DNA of 64,000 nt, taken from the IMG/VR virus record IMGVR_UViG_2579778941_000001; one strand, given 5' to 3'. The number at the start of each line of letters is the position of its first letter. The stretch's first letter is position 1. Shown here piece after piece: positions 2,807-9,377 of this stretch. The notes below the pieces were generated by a model. It was not told the origin of the DNA, did no database searches, and saw only the letters and a list, made by a program, of their open reading frames with translations. This DNA comes from a virus. Its lineage: Duplodnaviria; Heunggongvirae; Uroviricota; Caudoviricetes. A program made the position numbers and the translations under genes.

Positions 2807-4821
2807 AAGAGCTGTGCTATGGATCTGTTTGCAGTGGAATTGAAGCCGCGAGTATTGCCTGGGAACCGTTGGGTATGCGTCCGGCGTGGTTTGCTGAAAT
2901 CGAGCCTTTTCCATCTGCCGTTCTTGCGCACCGCTGGCCCCATGTCGCCAACCTTGGCGATATGACAAAACTTGCCAAAAAAGTCCTGGCTGGGGAAATC
3001 GAATCCCCTGATGTGCTCGTCGGGGGTACGCCTTGTCAGGCATTCAGTATCGCGGGCTTACGTGGTGGGCTTGATGATGAACGCGGCGCGCTAACTTTGA
3101 AGTATGTGGAGCTTGCAAATGCAATTGACGACAAACGGTCTGAGTCCTTCCTCAAACCGACAGTTATCGTCTGGGAAAATGTCCCAGGAGTCCTGTCATC
3201 GGCAGATAACGCCTTCGGATGTTTCCTTGCCGGATTGGCTGGAGAAGATGCGCCATTTGAACCAGGTGATCGACCTGAATCAGGAAAAAGTAACGCGTTC
3301 TGGCGGTGGGATGGCAAAACCGGTTGCCATGCTCCAAAGTGGCCGCAGTGTGGTTGTATTTATGGACCGCAGCGAAAGGTGGCCTGGAGAATCCTTGATG
3401 CCCAATACTTCGGAGTGGCACAACGACGCCGACGCGTGTTTGTTGTCGCAAGTGCTCGAACAGACCTCGATCCCGCAACGGTACTTTTTGAGTTCGAAGG
3501 CGTGCGCCGGAATATTGCGCCGAGCAGAGGCGAGGGGAAGGAAACTACCAGATATACTTCAAACATCGCTATCAGATCTTGCGATGATACAAACATAGTT
3601 GCCATGGCACATGGGCAAGGAGGGGCTGAGATAAAAACCGATAATTCGGCACCAACTTTGACATGTAACCATGAAGCACCAATTGTATTGCTCGTCGACG
3701 GTAGAATGCGCCGTCTTATCCCTGTCGAATGTGAAAGGCTGCAAGGTTTTCCTGATGGACATACATTGATCCCTACGGAAAAGCGTAAAAAAGTTTCTTC
3801 AGATGAACTGGCATACCTTCGCAAAAACTATCCTGATTTGAGCGAAGAAGAGGCCGCGATGCTTGCAGCTGACGGACCGCGTTACAAAGCGATCGGCAAT
3901 AGTATGGCGATACCAGTAATGCGCTGGATTGGCGATCGGATTGCCAAGGCTGCATGTCGGCAGAAGGAAGGGAGTGAAACAAAAGAGCGAAAAGTTAAAC
4001 CAGCGGCAGAATTCGAACGGTCCATATTCAAATGGGCTGGTGGAAAATTTGGTGTTCTGGAACAAATCTTTCGCTATTTGCCAGAAGGGAAGCGCCTGAT
4101 TGAGCCTTTCGTTGGTGGCGGAGCTGTCTTCATGAATGCCGGATACCAGGAAAATCTGCTAAATGATGTGAATGCTGACCTGATTAACTTTTACAAGACT
4201 CTGCAACGCGAGGCGCATTCACTTATCACTCTGGCACATCGTTTCTTCCAGGACTACAACACGCAGGAAGGATACCTGGCAGTACGGAATGCGTTTAACA
4301 AACAAGTCTATGATGATTTACATCGCGCAGCGGCGTTTTTGTTCCTGAACCGACATTGTTTTAACGGATTGACGCGTTACAACCAAGCCGGTGAGTTCAA
4401 TGTCGGTTATGGGAAGTATAAAACTCCGTATTTCCCATTGCAGGAGATGGAAGCCTTCCTTGGTGCGGAAGGGCGTTCTGAGTTTGTATGTGGTGATTTT
4501 GCTGCGGTGATTGAAGCTGCCGGAGAAGGAGATGTCATCTTTTGCGATCCGCCGTATGAACCGCTCCCAAATACAGAGGGATTCACGAACTATTCCGGTC
4601 ATGACTTTAAGTTTGAAGAGCAAAAACGCCTGGCGTCTCTGTTGACGGATGCTCATCGCCGAGGTGCAAAGGTTCTCATTACTAACAGTGGCGCGCCAAA
4701 CATCAGAGAACTTTATCAGGACAGTGGCTTCAGAGTGGAACCTCTTTTTGCCAGACGTTCTGTGTCTTGTAAGGGGGACACTCGAGGTGTTGCTCATGAC
4801 GTTATAGCAATATTGCTCTAA
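2803..4821 (+). CDS. dmt: Bifunctional DNA methyltransferase: N-terminal C5-cytosine MTase domain fused to C-terminal Dam-like N6-adenine MTase domain
   Basis: C5 motifs [12 protein letters not shown] (PCQ), ENVPG (ENV), QRRRRVF; C-terminal [10 protein letters not shown]...[10 protein letters not shown]...FCDPPYEP is a clear Dam/D12-class signature. GTG start overlapping hrdC stop. Confidence 0.9.
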
Positions 4822-4828
4822 TAAATTT
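4812..4828 (+). promoter_or_regulatory. C1 operator (ATTGCTCTAATAAATTT, exact consensus) overlapping dmt stop codon
   Basis: Exact 17-bp match to the consensus. Confidence 0.65.
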
Positions 4829-5005
4829 ATTAGTGTAATATCGCCTCAATGAATCGTGATTTATAGAGCGATTTAGCTGTTAGCCGCGACAGGCGCGGCG
4901 GCAAGTATGGCGGGGTAGTGACTCCTTCCCCCTCATGACGCCGAGTTGCCAGGTTGACCATACGCCTAAGTGGCAACACCGAAGTGCGTTACGAGCTTCC
5001 AGTTT

Positions 5006-5031
5006 GCCCATCTTCGGGTGGGCGTTTTTTT
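5006..5031 (+). terminator. Rho-independent terminator downstream of dmt
   Basis: GCCCA-loop-TGGGC hairpin followed by T8 run. Confidence 0.55.
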
Positions 5032-5496
5032 CAGGGTTTTCGTCATGGTTAGCGACTTTGCGGCGGTTTAGAAACTGACCATTAAAGTAAATGCAAACGA
5101 TGATCTGATGATGGTAGCGGCCTAAGAAGCCAGACGCCACGGGGTATGAGTCGTCCCCCGTCAAAAAATCGACCGCAGAGTGTCCCCGTCTGTGTATTAG
5201 GGAACGGGGAGGCACAACAGGTAAGGGCGCTGGTGTGATTAACCAGATGAACGAGAAGGGGCCATCTGTTGGTCAGCGTCCTTTCCTGTTGCGTCTTCTT
5301 TTCAGCGTAACAGCGGTGCTTAACAGCACTTTGGGTACAGTTCCACGAATTTACGGGTATATCCCGTCATGCTGAAAGCGCTAATCACGCTGGAAGCCAG
5401 GGTTATGCATCCCCTGTTACCGAATTGCAGCCAGGGCGCGGTGCGCCGAAAAGCATACGGAGGTGGAAGCCCTCGCCGGAGACGTACCCGGCAAGT

Positions 5497-5572
5497 GATG
5501 GTGTAGCTCAGCGGTTAGAGCGGTTGACTGTTAATCAACGGGTCGATGGTTCAAATCCATCCACCATCGCCA
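5497..5572 (+). tRNA. tRNA-Asn (anticodon GTT)
   Basis: Hand-folded cloverleaf: acceptor GATGGTG/CACCATC, D-arm GCTC/GAGC, anticodon stem GTTGA/TCAAC with loop CTGTTAA, T-arm GATGG-TTCAAAT-CCATC, encoded CCA; 76 nt. Confidence 0.88.
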
Positions 5573-5574
5573 AT

Positions 5575-5650
5575 GCCGGTTTAGCTCAGTTGGTAGAGCG
5601 CCTGCCTTGTAAGCAGGATGTCAGCGGTTCGAGTCCGTTAATCGGCACCA
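5575..5650 (+). tRNA. tRNA-Thr (anticodon TGT)
   Basis: Hand-folded: acceptor GCCGGTT/AATCGGC, anticodon stem CCTGC/GCAGG with loop CTTGTAA, T-loop TTCGAGT, encoded CCA; 76 nt, 2 nt after tRNA-Asn. Confidence 0.88.
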
Positions 5651-5651
5651 G

Positions 5652-6450
5652 CACAACAGGTAAGGGTATTTTGCGACGTCGGAGATCGCCGAGCTTGGCA
5701 GAGGGTTCGAATCCCTACGAAGTACCCTTACCGTTGTGATGAATGCGCAGGCTGATGCGCGAAAGACATTGCAGCTATTGCGGAAAAGAGCTGTTCGGCG
5801 GGGCAATTAAACGCCCGTGAGAGTCTGAAATAACCGCAAGCCGGAGATCAGCACCGGTCATCACAACACAACAGGTAAGGGCATTCTCCCTTATGGGGCT
5901 TGGCTTAAATGCATCGAGTGCTCTTACCGTTGTGATGAAGTGCAGCTCTTTGAAGCAACCAGAAGATAAGCATCTGGCTTCACAACATAAACCGCAGGAA
6001 CGACCAATAAACGGTAGTCCGTATGGAGAACACCCCGTTGAGGAAGAGGCCTGGCCGGAACCGTAACCGGCACTACAACGTTGAGAACACTGGCGTAACG
6101 GGGTCATATCCCAATCTACGAATAAATGTTGCGTTGCAGCGTGACAACCAGTGTTCTCAACATTGTGGTGAATGCACAGGCTGATGTGCCGCAACTACAG
6201 TAGTGCGCGCTTTGCGGGGCTTGCTACAACCCTGTGTCGGAGTTCAGCACCGACCATCACAGTTTGATTCTCTGGCATGAGCATAACGCTGAAATAAGTC
6301 CAGCTTGGTGCGGCCCGATCACCCGCCGTTAGCTCCACGAAACGGAGCACGTAACAGGTAAGAGCATTCTCCTGTAACGGGTTCATATCCCAATCTACAG
6401 GTCCACCAAGAATGCTCTTTCCGTTGCGGTGAATGCGGCTAAGCGCACGC
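5652..6450. repeat. Array of four related long-stem hairpin elements (units about 5652-5760, 5859-5950, 6073-6190, 6348-6450), each followed by a conserved GTTGTGATGAATGC-like tail
   Basis: Each unit has a 14-22 bp stem (e.g. CTACAACGTTGAGAACACTGG / CCAGTGTTCTCAACATTGTGG) around a 25-55 nt loop; loops of units A, C, D contain T-arm-like hairpins (AGGGTTCGAATCCCT; GGGGTCATATCCC; GGGTTCATATCCC). No convincing ORF. Confidence 0.6.
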
Positions 6451-6578
6451 GGGGAAATGGTTATATCAGTCCATTCATTTCTCCTTGTTTCCCCGTCCAC
6501 GGTGGATAACCAGCCAAAGGACACCGGGAGGCACCCGGCACCGCAGCTTTTTTATTCGTTAAATAATGGAGTGAGAGG

Positions 6579-6815
6579 ATGCAGAACAATCCGAACAAAT
6601 GTCGAACGCTATGGGTGCGGTTATATATTTATGCCGTCCTCTGTTTGATTGTGTCACTGGTTCTGTATGTTTGGCTTTTGCCAAATATGATCTCATCTAA
6701 CAGCACAATACTTGTATTGTTGGGAGTCCTTCTCGCGCTCATTTACCCGGCTTTCGCAGTAGTCTTTTTTCGTGAAAAAACCAGGAAATTAATTAATGAA
6801 AAAAACGTTGATTAG
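6579..6815 (+). CDS. Small two-TM membrane protein, probable partner of the downstream SPFH lipoprotein
   Basis: 78 aa, two hydrophobic helices; 3' end overlaps start of 6796..7623. Confidence 0.45.
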   Translation: MQNNPNKCRTLWVRLYIYAVLCLIVSLVLYVWLLPNMISSNSTILVLLGVLLALIYPAFAVVFFREKTRKLINEKNVD

Positions 6816-7623
6816 TGCAGCGATTATTTTGGGTTCTTTATGTCTGACCGGATGCGATCGGGTAGAGCCAGGTAACGTAGGGATCAAAGTAAATAAGCTG
6901 GGGGATGATAAAGGTATCGGTGAAGTAGTTGGCGTTGGTCGCTACTGGACAGGCTTGAATACTGAAGTTTATATCTTCCCGACCTTTAAGCAAATGAAGA
7001 CATACGATGAGCCGTTCAGCTTCCAGATGAGCGACGGAACAACCATTGGTTACCACATCGGCGTAGCCTACAAGGTTGATCCAGCAAAAGTCACAACGGT
7101 ATTTCAGACCTATCGCAAAGGTGTAGATGATATTACTGATACCGATCTACGCCAGAAGGTTGCAGATGCTCTGAACCGGTTAGCCAGCAAAATGACCACC
7201 GACAAATTTATCGACGGTGGCAAATCTGAATTGCTTGATGCAGCCCTTAAAGACATTCAGGAAGAAATGACGCCAATCGGCATTCAGGTGATGAGCCTCT
7301 CTTATGTAGGTAAGCCAGAATACCCGCCAACAGTTATTGACAGTATTAACGCCAAAGTCACGGCAAACCAAAAAACCCTGCAACGCGAGCAAGAGGTCAA
7401 ACAACGTGAAGCAGAGGCCAACATGCTGCGCGCGGAAGCTGCCGGACAGGCTGATGCTATTCGCACAAAAGCCCAGGCCGAAGCTGATGCCATTCGTTTA
7501 CGTGGTGAAGCTCTGCGCCAGAACCCCGGTGTTATGGAGTTGGAAGCGATCAACAAATGGAACGGTACATTACCGCAGTATATGACCAGTAATACCGCTG
7601 TTCCGTTTGTTCCGGTGAAATAA
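6796..7623 (+). CDS. SPFH/band-7 (prohibitin-like) domain lipoprotein (plp-like position in P1)
   Basis: Signal peptide with lipobox LTGC; SPFH-like core followed by Ala/Glu/Arg-rich coiled coil (QREQEVKQREAEANMLRAEAAGQADAIRTKAQAEADAIRLRGEALRQ). Confidence 0.75.
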   Translation: MKKTLISAAIILGSLCLTGCDRVEPGNVGIKVNKLGDDKGIGEVVGVGRYWTGLNTEVYIFPTFKQMKTYDEPFSFQMSDGTTIGYHIGVAYKVDPAKVTTVFQTYRKGVDDITDTDLRQKVADALNRLASKMTTDKFIDGGKSELLDAALKDIQEEMTPIGIQVMSLSYVGKPEYPPTVIDSINAKVTANQKTLQREQEVKQREAEANMLRAEAAGQADAIRTKAQAEADAIRLRGEALRQNPGVMELEAINKWNGTLPQYMTSNTAVPFVPVK

Positions 7624-7650
7624 AAGCGTAAGCAAAATTGGCAGTAATCC

Positions 7651-7726
7651 GGCCCTTTAGCTCAGTGGTTAGAGCTGGCGACTCATAATCGCACGGTCAC
7701 CGGTTCAAGTCCGGTAGGGGCCACCA
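7651..7726 (+). tRNA. tRNA with CAT anticodon, closest to E. coli tRNA-Ile2 (ileX-like, lysidine-type) rather than tRNA-Met
   Basis: GGCCCTTTAGCTCAGTGGTTAGAGC...CTCATAA...GGTTCAAGTCC...AGGGGCCACCA; near-identical in acceptor, D and T arms to E. coli ileX as I recall it; 76 nt. Confidence 0.8.
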
Positions 7727-8012
7727 TATTTGGTTGTAACACGGCGTCTGGCACATGCGTCGTTAGCGGTCTGGTGACGTTAAAAGGGGGGAACCTTGCC
7801 CCTAGCTCAGGCAACGAACCAGGTAGCCGGAATGTGCAAGCCACCGTTTGTTGTTTCTCGGGTAAAGGGATTCACCATCCTGGCGATTCGGTGTGACAGC
7901 CGGGAAGAGTCCGGCGCATTAATCCTGATTTTCTGGTGATGACTCATATCGTTAGGAGTGATTTGAGTATGCCGATTATATCTGACATTCAGCACGCCTG
8001 GGTGGAGTGCTA

Positions 8013-9377
8013 ATGTCTGCATCCCCTCTTGAATCCATGCCAAATTCCCTTAGTGCAGAACAAGCTGTACTTGGTGGCTTAATGCTTGATAACTGCCGCT
8101 GGGATGAAGTTGCAGATCGTATAGTTGCTGATGATTTTTATACCAGTGCTCATCGTGAAATTTTCAGTGAGATGGAGAGGTTATTAAGTCATGGCAAACC
8201 GATTGATTTGATAACACTTGCTGAAGCACTTGAACAGAACGGTAAATTAGAACGCGCCGGTGGTTTTGCGTACCTTGCGGAGATGTCAAAGAACACGCCC
8301 AGCGCGGCAAATATTTGTGCTTATGCGGATATCGTTCGTGAACGCGCGGTTGTTCGTGAAATGATTTCCGTCGCAAATGAAATAGCCGAAGCTGGATATG
8401 CGCAGGATGGCAGGGGCAGCAATGAATTGCTGGATATGGCCGAGCGCCGCGTTTTTGAAATAGCTGAAAAACGACAAAAGAGCGGTAGTGGTCCAAAAGA
8501 TATCGCCAGCATTCTCGATGCAACGGTATCTCGCATAGAAGAGTTGTTTCAGCGACCACATGATGGTGTAACGGGGCTTGATACGGGATTTACCGATCTC
8601 AATAAGAAGACGGCAGGGCTTCAGCCGTCCGATCTCATCATTGTCGCCGCCCGCCCATCTATGGGGAAGACCACGTTTGCGATGAATCTCGTCGAAAATG
8701 CCGCAGTTCGTAACGATAAGCCCGTATTGGTTTTTAGCCTTGAGATGCCGAGCCACCAGCTGATGATGCGCTCACTGGCTTCTCTTGCACGCGTTGATCA
8801 GACTCGTATTCGGACAGGGCAACTTAACGACGAGGATTGGGCGCGGGTTTCTGGCGCAATGGGTATTCTGTTGGACAAGCAGAATATTTTTATTGATGAC
8901 TCAAGCGCCCTGACACCTACAGAGCTTCGTTCCCGCGCTCGTCGTGTTTATAAAGAAAATGGTGGTTTGAGCATGATTATGATCGACTACCTGCAACTTA
9001 TGCGCGTCCCCGAGCTGCAAGATAACCGAACGCTGGAAATTGCCGAGATTTCTCGCTCACTGAAGGCGTTGGCGAAGGAATTACAAGTACCGGTGGTGGC
9101 ATTGTCACAACTTAATCGATCGCTTGAACAGCGTGCGGACAAACGACCGGTAAATTCAGATTTACGTGAATCAGGAGCAATTGAGCAGGACGCAGACCTG
9201 ATCATGTTTCTGTATCGCGACGAAGTTTATCACCCGGATAGCGAAATGAAGGGCATTGCCGAGGTAATTATCGGAAAGCAACGAAATGGCCCAATTGGCA
9301 CGGTGAGATTGGCTTTTAACGGCCAATACTCACGGTTTGATAACTATGCTGGTGCTGACTGGCAAGAGGATTATTAA
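8013..9377 (+). CDS. ban: Replicative DNA helicase, DnaB family (P1 Ban)
   Basis: DnaB N-terminal domain (AEQAVLGGLMLD), Walker A region (ARPSMGKTTFAMN), DnaB C-terminal motifs (DLRESGAIEQDADLIMFLYRDEVY). Start ATG 8013 (GTG 8007 alternative). Confidence 0.9.
   Translation: MSASPLESMPNSLSAEQAVLGGLMLDNCRWDEVADRIVADDFYTSAHREIFSEMERLLSHGKPIDLITLAEALEQNGKLERAGGFAYLAEMSKNTPSAANICAYADIVRERAVVREMISVANEIAEAGYAQDGRGSNELLDMAERRVFEIAEKRQKSGSGPKDIASILDATVSRIEELFQRPHDGVTGLDTGFTDLNKKTAGLQPSDLIIVAARPSMGKTTFAMNLVENAAVRNDKPVLVFSLEMPSHQLMMRSLASLARVDQTRIRTGQLNDEDWARVSGAMGILLDKQNIFIDDSSALTPTELRSRARRVYKENGGLSMIMIDYLQLMRVPELQDNRTLEIAEISRSLKALAKELQVPVVALSQLNRSLEQRADKRPVNSDLRESGAIEQDADLIMFLYRDEVYHPDSEMKGIAEVIIGKQRNGPIGTVRLAFNGQYSRFDNYAGADWQEDY

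What the first reader, a model, noticed from the sequence alone, without database searches (positions are those of the whole stretch)
6579..7623. SPFH/band-7 lipoprotein with small membrane partner between phage tRNA genes
A lipobox-containing SPFH-domain protein with a long Ala/Glu/Arg coiled coil, translationally coupled to a 78-aa two-TM protein, is embedded between tRNA-Thr and tRNA-Ile. SPFH/NfeD-type modules organise membrane microdomains or proteases and are not an obvious phage function.
Basis: partly seen in the sequence, partly recalled or inferred. Interest (0 to 1): 0.4.

Follow-up and report, generated by a model that had tools for sequence, protein, structure and literature searches.

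The report
Phage SPFH lipoprotein with membrane partner
A P1-like phage-plasmid carries, in place of P1's tellurite/colicin-resistance genes, a common but functionally unstudied phage gene pair: a membrane-scaffold (SPFH) lipoprotein and a tiny two-helix membrane protein that always travels with it.

Summary
ORF 6796-7623 is an SPFH/Band_7 protein (Pfam E=1e-30; the model matches HflK/C, prohibitin, erlin and stomatin) with lipobox LTGC and Asp at +2. ORF 6579-6815 is a 78-aa two-TM protein that overlaps it by 20 nt.

The window is a P1-like phage-plasmid. The pair is a 1,088-bp cassette (6554-7641) that replaces P1 tciABC in the C1-repressed ban operon, just upstream of trnI. About as many PLSDB plasmids carry it (188) as carry tciABC (191).

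- The partner is not NfeD.
- P1 plp/upl are different ORFs, on the other strand.
- SPFH lipoproteins are common in phages (phrog_200; 795 of 50,697 phage records).

The new point is that the small protein (phrog_1130) is a conserved, obligate partner. It lies upstream of the SPFH gene across P1-like, P2-like, lambdoid, N4-like and other phages. In at least 13 of 150 cluster representatives it is fused to the SPFH protein, and the lipobox Cys is kept.

Most likely the pair forms a periplasm-facing SPFH assembly on the inner membrane during early lytic growth. The biological role is unknown: membrane protection, exclusion and FtsH modulation are all open. Interest is modest.

The parts
6579..6815 (+). 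Small partner gene: a 78-aa two-TM hairpin protein. N and C termini are predicted cytoplasmic, and the periplasmic turn carries the conserved motif P-x-[LM]-[IV]-S-[SA]-x-[DS]-T...G (here LLPNMISSNSTILVLLG).
   Evidence: ORF and Shine-Dalgarno. phrog_1130 'membrane protein' E=6e-16. Homologues 33-46% identical lie upstream of the SPFH gene in P88, Erwinia phage S6 and an Stx2 phage. HMM hits in 79/80 close loci and 39/67 diverged loci; motif.
6796..7623 (+). SPFH/Band_7 lipoprotein, 275 aa: signal peptide with lipobox (Cys20, Asp+2), SPFH domain, a helix of about 65 residues, and a conserved C-terminal KWNGxLP...PF motif.
   Evidence: Pfam E=9.7e-31. phrog_200 E=2e-113. AF2 models with pLDDT 75 and 84. 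Foldseek top hits HflK, HflC, prohibitin, erlin and stomatin, probability 1.0. Family conservation.
6796..6815 (+). 20-nt overlap of the two genes, containing an A7 tract. Deleting one A fuses the two ORFs in frame, and this is the natural variant P0001 (347 aa).
6554..7641 (+). The exchangeable cassette. Homology to reference P1 stops at 6553 and resumes at 7642; P1 has tciA-tciB-tciC here.
   Evidence: blastn against NC_005856. P1 annotation. RCS47 annotation. 188 PLSDB plasmids hold at least 80% of a 1.6-kb query spanning this cassette (window 6300-7900), against 191 that hold the tciABC cassette.
4813..4841 (+). C1 repressor operator Oban (ATTGCTCTAATAAATTTATTAGTGTAAT), overlapping the Pban promoters. 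This is the presumed promoter of the operon that contains the module.
   Evidence: Identical to the annotated P1 operator. That the transcript reaches 6579 is inferred from the P1 operon annotation, not shown.
5497..5650 (+). tRNA-Asn (5497-5572) and tRNA-Thr (5575-5650), upstream members of the operon.
7651..7726 (+). tRNA with anticodon CAT (P1 trnI, tRNA-Ile2), 27 nt after the SPFH stop codon.
8013..9377 (+). ban (DnaB-like helicase), the next protein gene of the operon. It shows that the module is embedded among early/replication genes.
6425..6553 (+). Structured RNA-like module followed by a U-run, immediately left of the cassette boundary. Sub-threshold Rfam STnc100 hit.

Best explanation
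This is a two-gene phage accessory module that most likely builds an SPFH scaffold on the periplasmic face of the inner membrane.

The 275-aa protein is exported and lipidated at Cys20. Asp at +2 is the Lol-avoidance signal of Enterobacteriaceae, so the protein should stay in the inner membrane. Its SPFH domain, its helix of about 65 residues and its conserved C-terminal motif would let it oligomerise into a ring or dome, like HflK/C, prohibitin, stomatin or QmcA.

The 78-aa protein is its obligate partner. It is a TM hairpin (N-in, C-in) whose conserved periplasmic turn would contact the membrane-proximal part of the SPFH protein. It would supply the transmembrane element that the lipid-anchored scaffold lacks.

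The two genes overlap and sit in the C1-repressed ban operon, so the pair should be made when the prophage is derepressed or on infection, not in the quiescent lysogen.

Biological role (inferred, weakest step): an inner-membrane shield or organiser during early lytic growth. It would keep the energised membrane intact, or block damage or entry from the periplasmic side. In this it would be functionally analogous to the TerB-type tciABC cassette that it replaces.

Shown: domain, fold, lipobox, gene linkage, fusions, cassette swap, operator.
Inferred: lipidation, inner-membrane retention, oligomer, physical contact, timing of expression, role.
For: - Fold and family: Band_7 E=1e-30. AF2 models have pLDDT 75 and 84. 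The best Foldseek matches are the cage-forming SPFH proteins HflK/C, prohibitin, erlin, stomatin, flotillin and QmcA. By sequence, the closest solved chains are HflK, PHB2 and HflC.
- Anchor and topology: lipobox LTGC followed by Asp+2. Asp or Glu follows Cys in nearly all enterobacterial homologues. Natural fusions read TM1-TM2-TM3(lipobox)-SPFH, which puts the SPFH domain outside the cytoplasm. Cys is invariant in 15 of 15 fusions.
- Partner: homologous small genes lie directly upstream, with a 4-20 nt overlap, in P2-like P88, N4-like S6, Stx2 phages, Pseudomonas phage 5400, a Burkholderia prophage and metagenomic large phages. An HMM finds the partner upstream in 79/80 close and 39/67 diverged loci, and never downstream. 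A small ORF with at least two TM segments lies upstream in 55/69 diverged loci, against 6/69 downstream. At least 13 of 150 50%-identity cluster representatives are fusions.
- Expression context: the C1 operator is intact. No sigma-70-like promoter was found between 4300 and 8200. In other phages the pair also sits in early operons: the P88 cox-to-A interval, the lambdoid interval between repressor and int, the N4-like early region, and a Rhodopseudomonas prophage.
- Slot: this is P1 variable region 7, where 'nearly one-half' of P1-like elements lack tciABC (PMC9603915).
Against: - No experiment on this family bears on its function, and no paper I found gives one.
- Lipidation, membrane location and oligomer state are predictions.
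- The +3 residue is Arg, and I do not know how strongly Asp-Arg retains a lipoprotein in the inner membrane.
- Across the wider family the +2 residue is mostly Ser or Thr. Some close relatives have Tyr in place of Cys.
- A prophage SPFH protein of Pasteurella was found in outer-membrane vesicles and was expressed in the lysogen (PMC9872710). Its homology to this subfamily was not tested.
- 'Same slot' does not prove the same function as tciABC.
- The tciABC, ban, plp and upl genes are all dispensable for P1 plaque formation (PMC10695390), so any phenotype may be conditional.
- The promoter scan is crude, so an internal promoter active in lysogens is not excluded.
Confidence: 0.5

Rival explanations
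1. FtsH hijack. The phage SPFH assembly mimics or competes with host HflK/C. It would cage or release the inner-membrane protease FtsH and so change the turnover of phage or host proteins during development, as lambda CIII does by another route.
For: HflK and HflC are the closest solved relatives by sequence and by fold, and the weak NCBIfam hits are to hflC and hflK. The predicted topology (periplasmic SPFH domain on the inner membrane) is the same. In lambdoid phages the pair sits in the early-left region, which in lambda holds cIII (the cIII point is from my own knowledge). Authors of phage genome papers have proposed the HflK/C analogy (PMC8540360).
Against: Identity to HflK/C is only about 17-18%, and the equivalog cut-offs are missed by a wide margin (23-25 bits against 134-159). 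There is one SPFH gene, not an HflK/HflC pair. The family is also common in strictly virulent phages and in Gram-positive and archaeal viruses, where CII-type decisions do not apply. No FtsH-contact residues could be tested.
Confidence: 0.18
2. Superinfection exclusion. The pair alters the periplasmic face of the inner membrane so that DNA of later-arriving phages cannot cross. This would be like T4 Imm (a small two-TM protein) together with the periplasmic Sp, or like small inner-membrane exclusion proteins of temperate phages.
For: The architecture (a small inner-membrane hairpin plus a periplasmic protein) and the early expression fit. The pair occurs in both virulent and temperate phages. 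The mature SPFH part is 94-98% identical between unrelated phage types, while the partner is only 33-45% identical. That pattern would fit a variable specificity subunit. The alternative cassette at this slot is TerB-like, and ter operons are linked to phage inhibition (PMC9603915).
Against: There is no PADLOC hit for the SPFH protein, and only an insignificant one (E=0.023) for the partner. In P1-like, P2-like and lambdoid phages the pair lies in repressed early operons rather than in prophage-expressed positions, which is unusual for exclusion genes of temperate phages. P1 already has sim. The T4 analogy comes from memory, not from a test.
Confidence: 0.17
3. Lysis control. The two-TM protein is a holin- or pinholin-like membrane protein, and the SPFH lipoprotein organises or restrains it to set lysis timing.
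For: The size and topology of the partner resemble class II holins. In Staphylococcus Kayvirus the SPFH gene mbpS and the small membrane gene mbpV lie between lysK and tgl, and the authors note that MbpV resembles holins (PMC7150955).
Against: The holin profile hit is not significant (phrog_565, E=0.099). In P1-like, P2-like, lambdoid and N4-like phages the pair is far from the lysis genes and lies in early operons. MbpV is not detectably homologous to the partner.
Confidence: 0.08
4. Lysogenic-conversion surface factor. The lipoprotein is expressed from the prophage and reaches the outer membrane or vesicles, where it affects the envelope properties or virulence of the host bacterium.
For: A prophage-borne SPFH (HflK/C-like) protein of Pasteurella multocida was expressed in the lysogen, was found in outer-membrane vesicles, activated TLR1/2, and affected capsule, adhesion and virulence (PMC9872710).
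Against: Asp at +2 argues for inner-membrane retention in E. coli. The fused relatives are necessarily inner-membrane proteins. The gene sits behind a C1-repressed promoter, with no promoter-like site of its own. Homology of the Pasteurella protein to this subfamily was not tested.
Confidence: 0.07

Closest known systems
HflK/HflC (E. coli FtsH modulators; PDB 7VHP, 7WI3, 9CZ2)
   Same: SPFH fold, long wall helix and conserved C-terminal cap motif. The predicted orientation is the same, with the SPFH domain in the periplasm on the inner membrane. These are the best sequence and fold matches among solved structures.
   Different: There is a single gene rather than a K/C pair. The anchor is lipid (a lipobox) rather than an N-terminal TM helix. 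Identity is about 17-18% and the equivalog cut-offs are not met. There is a separate two-TM partner. No link to FtsH has been shown.
SPFH-NfeD operons (QmcA-YbbJ, PDB 8Z5G; YuaF-FloT; PH1511-PH1510)
   Same: An SPFH gene is tightly coupled to a small membrane-protein gene in one operon, and the partner probably sits with the scaffold. QmcA is among the fold matches.
   Different: The partner has no NfeD/OB-fold domain and no protease domain. It is only a 67-78-aa hairpin with its own conserved motif. QmcA faces the cytoplasm (from my own knowledge).
P1 TciA-TciB-TciC (TerB-like cassette; P1 variable region 7)
   Same: It occupies exactly the same slot between the structured-RNA region and trnI in the ban operon. 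It also consists of a larger protein plus very small membrane proteins. The two alleles are about equally frequent.
   Different: There is no sequence or fold relation: TerB domain versus SPFH. The function of tciABC is itself only inferred by homology, and the genes are non-essential (PMC10695390).
Kayvirus MbpS/MbpV (Staphylococcus phages K, G1, MSA6)
   Same: MbpS is a distant homologue (about 26% identity). A small membrane-protein gene (mbpV) abuts it upstream.
   Different: MbpV has one TM segment and is not detectably related to the partner. The host is Gram-positive, and the genes neighbour the lysis module.
Pasteurella multocida PM0222 (prophage SPFH protein, virulence factor)
   Same: It is a prophage-encoded HflK/C-like SPFH protein, and the only such protein I found with experimental data (PMC9872710).
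   Different: It is reported in outer-membrane vesicles and is expressed in the lysogen. Its sequence relation to this subfamily was not tested here.

Membership tests
SPFH / Band 7 superfamily (PF01145) | SPFH domain detectable by profile | tested here: met
   Pfam Band_7 E=9.7e-31, 107.6 bits (cut-off 23.6), nearly full-length profile match 2-176/176.
SPFH / Band 7 superfamily (PF01145) | SPFH alpha/beta fold followed by a long coiled-coil helix | tested here: met
   AF2 models. Foldseek against the PDB: 67 hits at E<=1e-3, and the top 50 listed are all SPFH-family proteins (major vault protein included), with probability 1.0. One helix spans residues 178-242.
SPFH / Band 7 superfamily (PF01145) | Membrane-attached homo- or hetero-oligomeric ring or cage | not testable with these tools
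   Only monomer models are available. This needs native PAGE or cryo-EM.
HflK/HflC FtsH modulators | Scores above the equivalog cut-offs (TIGR01933, TIGR01932) | tested here: not met
   23.3 and 24.7 bits, against cut-offs of 159.4 and 134.4.
HflK/HflC FtsH modulators | Two paralogous SPFH genes in tandem that form a hetero-oligomer | tested here: not met
   There is one SPFH gene. The neighbour is a 78-aa hairpin protein.
HflK/HflC FtsH modulators | Binds and regulates FtsH | not testable with these tools
   No interaction prediction was possible, and identity of about 17% is too low to map contact residues.
SPFH-NfeD operon | Partner carries the NfeD C-terminal OB-fold domain (PF01957), with or without a ClpP-class protease domain | tested here: not met
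   No NfeD hit at E<=1. All Pfam hits of the partner are sub-threshold matches to TM segments.
Bacterial lipoprotein | N-terminal signal peptide with lipobox [LVI][ASTVI][GAS]C | tested here: met
   MKK / TLISAAIILGSLC / LTGC20. Cys is at least 90% conserved. No LipoP or SignalP run was possible, and acylation itself is not testable here.
Bacterial lipoprotein | Inner-membrane retention signal (Asp at +2 in Enterobacteriaceae) | tested here: met
   Asp21, conserved in most enterobacterial homologues. The rule itself is established knowledge. The effect of Arg at +3 is uncertain.
PHROG phrog_200 (lipoprotein) with phrog_1130 (membrane protein) | Profile match | tested here: met
   E=2.3e-113 and E=6.4e-16.
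P1 Plp / Upl | Orthology with P1 plp (YP_006538) and upl (YP_006539) | tested here: not met
   P1 plp and upl map to the minus strand of window 5775-6390. RCS47 annotates both them and, separately, the SPFH gene.
Known anti-phage defence systems (PADLOC-DB 2.0) | Match to a defence-system protein model | tested here: not met
   There were 0 hits for the SPFH protein, and one insignificant hit (E=0.023, PDC-M18B) for the partner.
Holins | Match to a holin family, and location in a lysis cassette | tested here: not met
   phrog_565 E=0.099. The neighbours are tRNAs and ban, not lysis genes.

The most novel reading that the evidence does not exclude
The two-TM protein plus periplasm-facing SPFH lipoprotein would be a previously unrecognised, very widespread two-component phage membrane system. 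It would be made early in infection and would form a cage on the outer face of the inner membrane. That cage would shield the infected cell against entry or damage from the periplasm: superinfecting phage DNA, pore-forming colicins, or membrane-depolarising abortive-infection effectors. The fast-evolving small partner would set the specificity. The system would be functionally interchangeable with the TerB-type tciABC cassette at the same P1 locus.
Probability: 0.22. Interest if true: 0.6.

Novelty: new member of a known kind. Interest (0 to 1): 0.35.

Why it matters
SPFH proteins are universal membrane scaffolds whose bacterial roles are still poorly understood. A phage-borne branch is present in about 1.6% of sequenced phage genomes and in about 8% of complete E. 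coli genomes, yet it has no assigned function.

Three results make it a compact, testable system: the SPFH gene always comes with one specific two-TM partner, which is often not annotated; the two are sometimes fused with the lipobox cysteine retained; and the pair alternates with a TerB cassette at one P1 locus. Only two genes are involved, natural allele swaps exist, and P1 genetics are available. This could be used to ask what SPFH assemblies do at the periplasmic face of the inner membrane and why phages need them.

For annotation, three corrections follow: the label 'serine protease' on this gene is wrong, the small gene should be called, and this pair is what fills the 'missing tciABC' in about half of P1-like plasmids.

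Tried and rejected
- NfeD partner: no Pfam hit.
- Known defence system: PADLOC negative.
- HflK/HflC equivalog: far below cut-off.
- 'Serine protease', as annotated in RCS47 and in Stx phages: only a Band_7 domain is present. The label is probably inherited from the old COG name 'membrane protease subunit'.
- P1 plp/upl identity: wrong strand and wrong place.
- Own sigma-70 promoter for the pair: none found by the consensus scan. This is weak negative evidence.
- The search for related loci with a 51-sequence diverse alignment failed because no stretch was conserved enough. With a closer alignment it returned only relatives of at least 78% identity. I therefore sampled diversity with three distant single queries and with annotated phage records.
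- The P1 genome paper (PMC523184) is not held.
- Two literature searches were wasted: one because SPFH was not made a required term, and one because 'tciA' matched The Cancer Imaging Archive.
- The AF2 model of the natural fusion P0001 gave confident helices for the hairpin (pLDDT 82-87). However, no tool reports inter-residue contacts, so packing of the hairpin against the SPFH domain could not be read.
- For the side observation (structured modules at 5650-6553): they are not HK022 put by sequence, are not AgvB/AsxR-type anti-sRNAs, and have no Rfam match in lambdoid copies.
Full report
**What the window is.** The region 5400-8100 is 99.9% identical to Escherichia phage vB_EcoM-813R1 and 99% identical to RCS47. 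It is collinear with phage P1 except for two segments. It is therefore a P1-like phage-plasmid.

The P1 record gives the local gene order: dmt, the C1-controlled ban promoters and operator, a dicF-like region, trnA (Asn), trnT (Thr), plp and upl on the opposite strand, tciA-tciB-tciC, trnI, ban, dbn. The C1 operator sequence is intact in the window at 4813-4841.

**The observation.**
- ORF 6579-6815 encodes 78 aa. A GGAG lies 7 nt before its ATG.
- ORF 6796-7623 encodes 275 aa.
- The two ORFs overlap by 20 nt.

The large protein matches Pfam Band_7 over its whole domain (E=9.7e-31). Its N-terminus reads MKK-TLISAAIILGSLC-LTGC20-DR, which is a consensus lipobox followed by Asp at +2. Residues 190-243 are 69% Ala/Glu/Arg/Gln/Lys.

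AlphaFold2 gives an SPFH alpha/beta domain, a single 65-residue helix and a short terminal helix. Mean pLDDT is 75 with close homologues and 84 with a more diverse alignment. Foldseek against the PDB returns HflK, HflC, prohibitin, erlin, stomatin, flotillin, QmcA and the major vault protein, all at probability 1.0. A profile search of PDB sequences finds HflK, prohibitin-2 and HflC only weakly, at E about 1e-3.

The small protein has two hydrophobic segments (17-33 and 46-62), with basic residues at both ends. By the positive-inside rule, this gives a hairpin with N and C termini in the cytoplasm and a short periplasmic turn.

The flanking tRNAs are real. However, tRNA-Thr lies 928 nt upstream, not next to the pair.

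1. The partner is not NfeD. It has no OB-fold or protease domain, and its Pfam hits are all sub-threshold matches to TM segments.
2. The 'P1 upl-plp region' is not the counterpart. Those ORFs are on the minus strand at about 5775-6390, and RCS47 annotates them alongside the SPFH gene. A blastn against P1 shows that homology stops at 6553 and resumes at 7642. The 1,088-bp cassette therefore precisely replaces tciA-tciB-tciC, ending 9 nt before trnI.
3. The gene family is not rare in phages.
   - The large protein is phrog_200 'lipoprotein' (E=2e-113) and the small one is phrog_1130 'membrane protein' (E=6e-16).
   - tblastn finds relatives in 795 of 50,697 phage records. These include Staphylococcus Kayvirus, Pseudomonas, Erwinia, Klebsiella, crAss-like, Lak, Caulobacter and Bacillus phages, and haloarchaeal viruses.
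   - A full HMMER scan of 1.84 billion cluster representatives gives 222 clusters at E<=1e-30 and 2,875 at E<=1e-3.
   - Sources name the protein 'SPFH domain-containing protein', 'regulator of protease activity HflC', 'lipoprotein' or 'putative serine protease'. The last name is unfounded, because only Band_7 is present.

**How common the cassette is.** In PLSDB, 591 plasmids match a 1.6-kb query spanning the cassette and its flanks (window 6300-7900), and 188 of them hold at least 80% of that query. 191 plasmids hold at least 80% of the P1 tciABC cassette itself.

Among 5,426 complete E. coli genomes, 192 carry the full cassette. 460 carry a homologue of at least 80% nucleotide identity, including 310 chromosomal places.

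A survey of P1-like phage-plasmids listed tciABC as 'variable region 7' and noted that nearly half of the elements had 'lost' it. That paper never mentions SPFH (PMC9603915). The present cassette is evidently what occupies the slot in those elements.

In a CRISPRi screen of P1, the genes tciA/B/C, plp, upl, trnT, trnI and ban were all non-essential for plaque formation (PMC10695390).

**The small protein is an obligate, conserved partner.** This is the main thing I can add.

A homologous small gene lies directly upstream of the SPFH gene in several unrelated phages:
- P2-like phage P88 (gp11/gp12, 4-nt overlap).
- The N4-like Erwinia phage S6 (gp044/gp045).
- Stx2 phages, where it is an unannotated 62-aa ORF with an ATGA overlap.

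These small proteins are 33-46% identical to the window's protein. A partner is also detected in:
- E. coli phage 4MG, one gene further upstream.
- Pseudomonas phage 5400.
- A Burkholderia prophage.
- A large metagenomic phage.

I then scanned the upstream and downstream neighbours of the SPFH gene in all loci fetched for it.
- An HMM of the small protein hits an upstream ORF in 79 of 80 close loci and in 39 of 67 diverged loci (SPFH identity 39-79% to the distant queries). It never hits a downstream ORF.
- A small ORF with at least two TM segments lies just upstream in 55 of 69 diverged loci. It lies just downstream in 6 of 69.
- The conserved signature is P-x-[LM]-[IV]-S-[SA]-x-[DS]-T...G, at the periplasmic turn.

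At least 13 of the 150 best 50%-identity cluster representatives are natural fusions. They have the hairpin domain, then a third hydrophobic segment that still ends in a lipobox-like Cys, then the SPFH domain. That Cys is invariant in 15 of 15 aligned fusions, and in all 40 sequences of a mixed alignment of fused and unfused proteins. One representative (P0132) has the hairpin domain at the C-terminus instead.

The fusions fix the topology. Two TM segments return the chain to the cytoplasm, and the third takes it out, so the SPFH domain is extracytoplasmic. That agrees with the lipoprotein prediction for the unfused form. The invariant Cys suggests that lipidation, and perhaps LspA cleavage at an internal site, still matters in the fusions. 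This last point is inference.

**Mosaicism.** The mature SPFH protein of the window is 98% identical to that of P88 and 94.5% identical to that of an Stx2 phage. Over the same comparisons the signal peptides are only 32-42% identical, and the partners only 45% and 33%. At the nucleotide level, similarity to those phages begins about 6849, a few bases before the Cys codon.

So either there is a recombination joint at the lipobox, or the membrane-embedded parts evolve far faster than the scaffold. The pattern fits a conserved scaffold with a variable partner, but it proves nothing about function.

**Expression context.** The pair lies behind the C1-repressed ban promoters, between tRNA genes and the ban helicase. 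The consensus scan finds no sigma-70-like promoter anywhere in 4300-8200. This is weak evidence, because the same scan also fails to flag the annotated Pban.

In other phages the pair is also in early regions:
- Between cox and the replication gene A in P88.
- Between the repressor region and xis-int in an Stx2 phage and in a Rhodopseudomonas prophage.
- In the early region of an N4-like phage.
- Among nucleotide-metabolism genes of a large phage.

I infer that the pair is expressed in lytic growth rather than in the lysogen. This is not shown.

**Mechanism.**

The part I hold with fair confidence (about 0.75) is structural. The pair would form a lipid-anchored, periplasm-facing SPFH oligomer on the inner membrane, together with a TM-hairpin partner.

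The biological role is open. My preferred reading is a protective or organising function for the inner membrane during early lytic growth, analogous to the TerB-type cassette that alternates with it. Ter operons are associated with resistance to tellurite, to pore-forming colicins and to phages (as cited in PMC9603915). Bacterial SPFH proteins are repeatedly linked to membrane stress (for example PMC8581546 and PMC10434171, seen).

The rivals are modulation of FtsH, superinfection exclusion, lysis control, and a lysogenic-conversion surface factor. The last follows the one experimentally studied prophage SPFH protein, Pasteurella PM0222, which was found in outer-membrane vesicles (PMC9872710). 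No paper I could find assigns a function to phage SPFH proteins. Authors call the role 'still not clear' (PMC8540360).

**Comparison with known systems.** It is a member of the SPFH superfamily by profile and by fold. It is not an HflK or HflC equivalog, not an SPFH-NfeD pair, not a known defence system, and not P1 Plp/Upl. It works most like HflK/C in topology and like QmcA-YbbJ in having a small membrane partner. It differs from both in its anchor and in its partner.

**Novelty and interest.** The genes themselves are already in public records and in PHROGs, so this is an ordinary, recurrent phage accessory module and not a strange object. As far as my searches show, three things are not in the literature:
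- The tight two-gene unit with a specific partner family.
- The fusions with a retained lipobox cysteine.
- The identification of this pair as the alternative allele of P1 variable region 7.

That gives modest interest (0.35). The module is a tractable way into an unsolved question, namely what phage SPFH proteins do, but it is not a surprise to a specialist.

**Seen in passing.** The 900 nt between tRNA-Thr and the cassette are annotated in P1 as plp and upl on the minus strand. On the operon's sense strand they form an array of very stable hairpins (z-scores -2.95 to -5.85), alternating with a conserved module.

The module has:
- A 9-bp closing stem.
- Two short hairpins whose loops are complementary (GCUGA / UCAGC).
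- A variable insert of 10-170 nt.

Its exact 28-nt 5' motif occurs in at least 120 IMG/VR contigs. In lambdoid phages a single copy lies downstream of the cI-like repressor gene, or between Q-like antiterminator genes and holin genes.

On a trimmed alignment, 94.6% of cells pair, against 27-52% for slid controls. Six pairs change on both sides, a value that 0 of 500 shuffles reach. The 5' half was fixed by the search pattern, so this test is biased.

Rfam has no match, except for a sub-threshold STnc100 hit to the degenerate fourth copy at 6425-6545. The U-run that follows that copy, beginning at 6549, runs up to the left boundary of the SPFH cassette (6553/6554). RefSeq re-annotations of two related phages do not call plp or upl. 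These ORFs may therefore be artefacts laid over a structured-RNA array. I did not resolve what the module does.

Noticed in passing
window 5650-6553 (+ strand); also L165 1501-1637, L166 1501-1649, L167-L286: The stretch annotated in P1 as plp/upl (minus strand) is, on the operon's sense strand, an array of long stable hairpins alternating with a conserved structured module. The module reads 5' GUUGUGGUGAAUGCGCAGGCUGAUGCGC ... variable insert of 10-170 nt ... AAGCCGGAGAUCAGCACCGGCCACCACAAC 3'. It has a closing stem and two hairpins with complementary loops. The exact 5' motif occurs in at least 120 IMG/VR contigs. It lies downstream of cI-like repressor genes or between Q antiterminator and holin genes. 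Rfam has no family for it. The pairing is supported: 94.6% of cells pair against 27-52% in slid controls, and 6 pairs show compensatory changes. Its function is unknown, and plp/upl may not be real genes.
   Followed up: partly
window 6425-6553: The fourth, degenerate copy of that module gives a sub-threshold Rfam STnc100 hit (37.8 bits against a gathering score of 47). It is followed by a U-run that begins at 6549 and runs up to the left boundary of the SPFH/tciABC cassette swap (6553/6554). The exchangeable cassette is therefore bracketed by RNA genes: this module on the left and trnI on the right.
   Followed up: partly
window 6796-6815 (A7 tract at 6799-6805): Deleting one A in the A7 tract of the overlap fuses the two ORFs in frame. 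A public protein cluster (P0001, 347 aa, 8 member sequences, from a 94-kb contig) is exactly this fusion. It could be slipped-strand variation, a sequencing error, or a natural switch between the two-protein and the fused forms.
   Followed up: partly
window 6796-6855 compared with L003, L004, L005: There is a sharp mosaic joint at the lipobox. The mature SPFH protein is 98% identical to that of P88 and 94.5% identical to that of an Stx2 phage, but the signal peptides are 32-42% identical and the upstream partners only 45% and 33%.
   Followed up: partly
proteins P0124, P0128, P0129, P0148, P0152 and others (alignment A6): In natural fusions of the hairpin and the SPFH protein, the lipobox cysteine is invariant (15 of 15), although it now lies about 70-110 residues inside the protein. 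This hints at lipidation and LspA cleavage at an internal signal sequence.
   Followed up: no
proteins P0113, P0118 (alignment A1): A well-populated E. coli subgroup (one cluster was seen on 175 contigs) has Tyr in place of the lipobox Cys (IIGY-DRVEPG). These members cannot be lipoproteins and would keep the signal segment as a TM anchor.
   Followed up: no
window 5744-5916: A 173-bp segment absent from reference P1 adds one more hairpin/module unit to the array. It also changes the length and C-terminus of the supposed plp ORF (139 aa here against 125 aa in P1), which is further reason to doubt that plp is coding.
   Followed up: partly
window about 4936-5037 (hairpin plus T-run at 5002-5031): The dicF-like region annotated in P1 is conserved here. 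It ends in a strong terminator-like hairpin inside the ban operon leader, upstream of the tRNAs. Transcription must read through it to reach the tRNAs, the SPFH pair and ban.
   Followed up: no
window 6579-6815; RefSeq P1-like plasmids, RCS47, Stx2 phage LC567830: The 78-aa partner gene is not annotated in RCS47, in the RefSeq P1-like plasmids sampled, or (its 62-aa homologue) in Stx2 phage records. The SPFH gene is often mislabelled 'serine protease'.
   Followed up: yes
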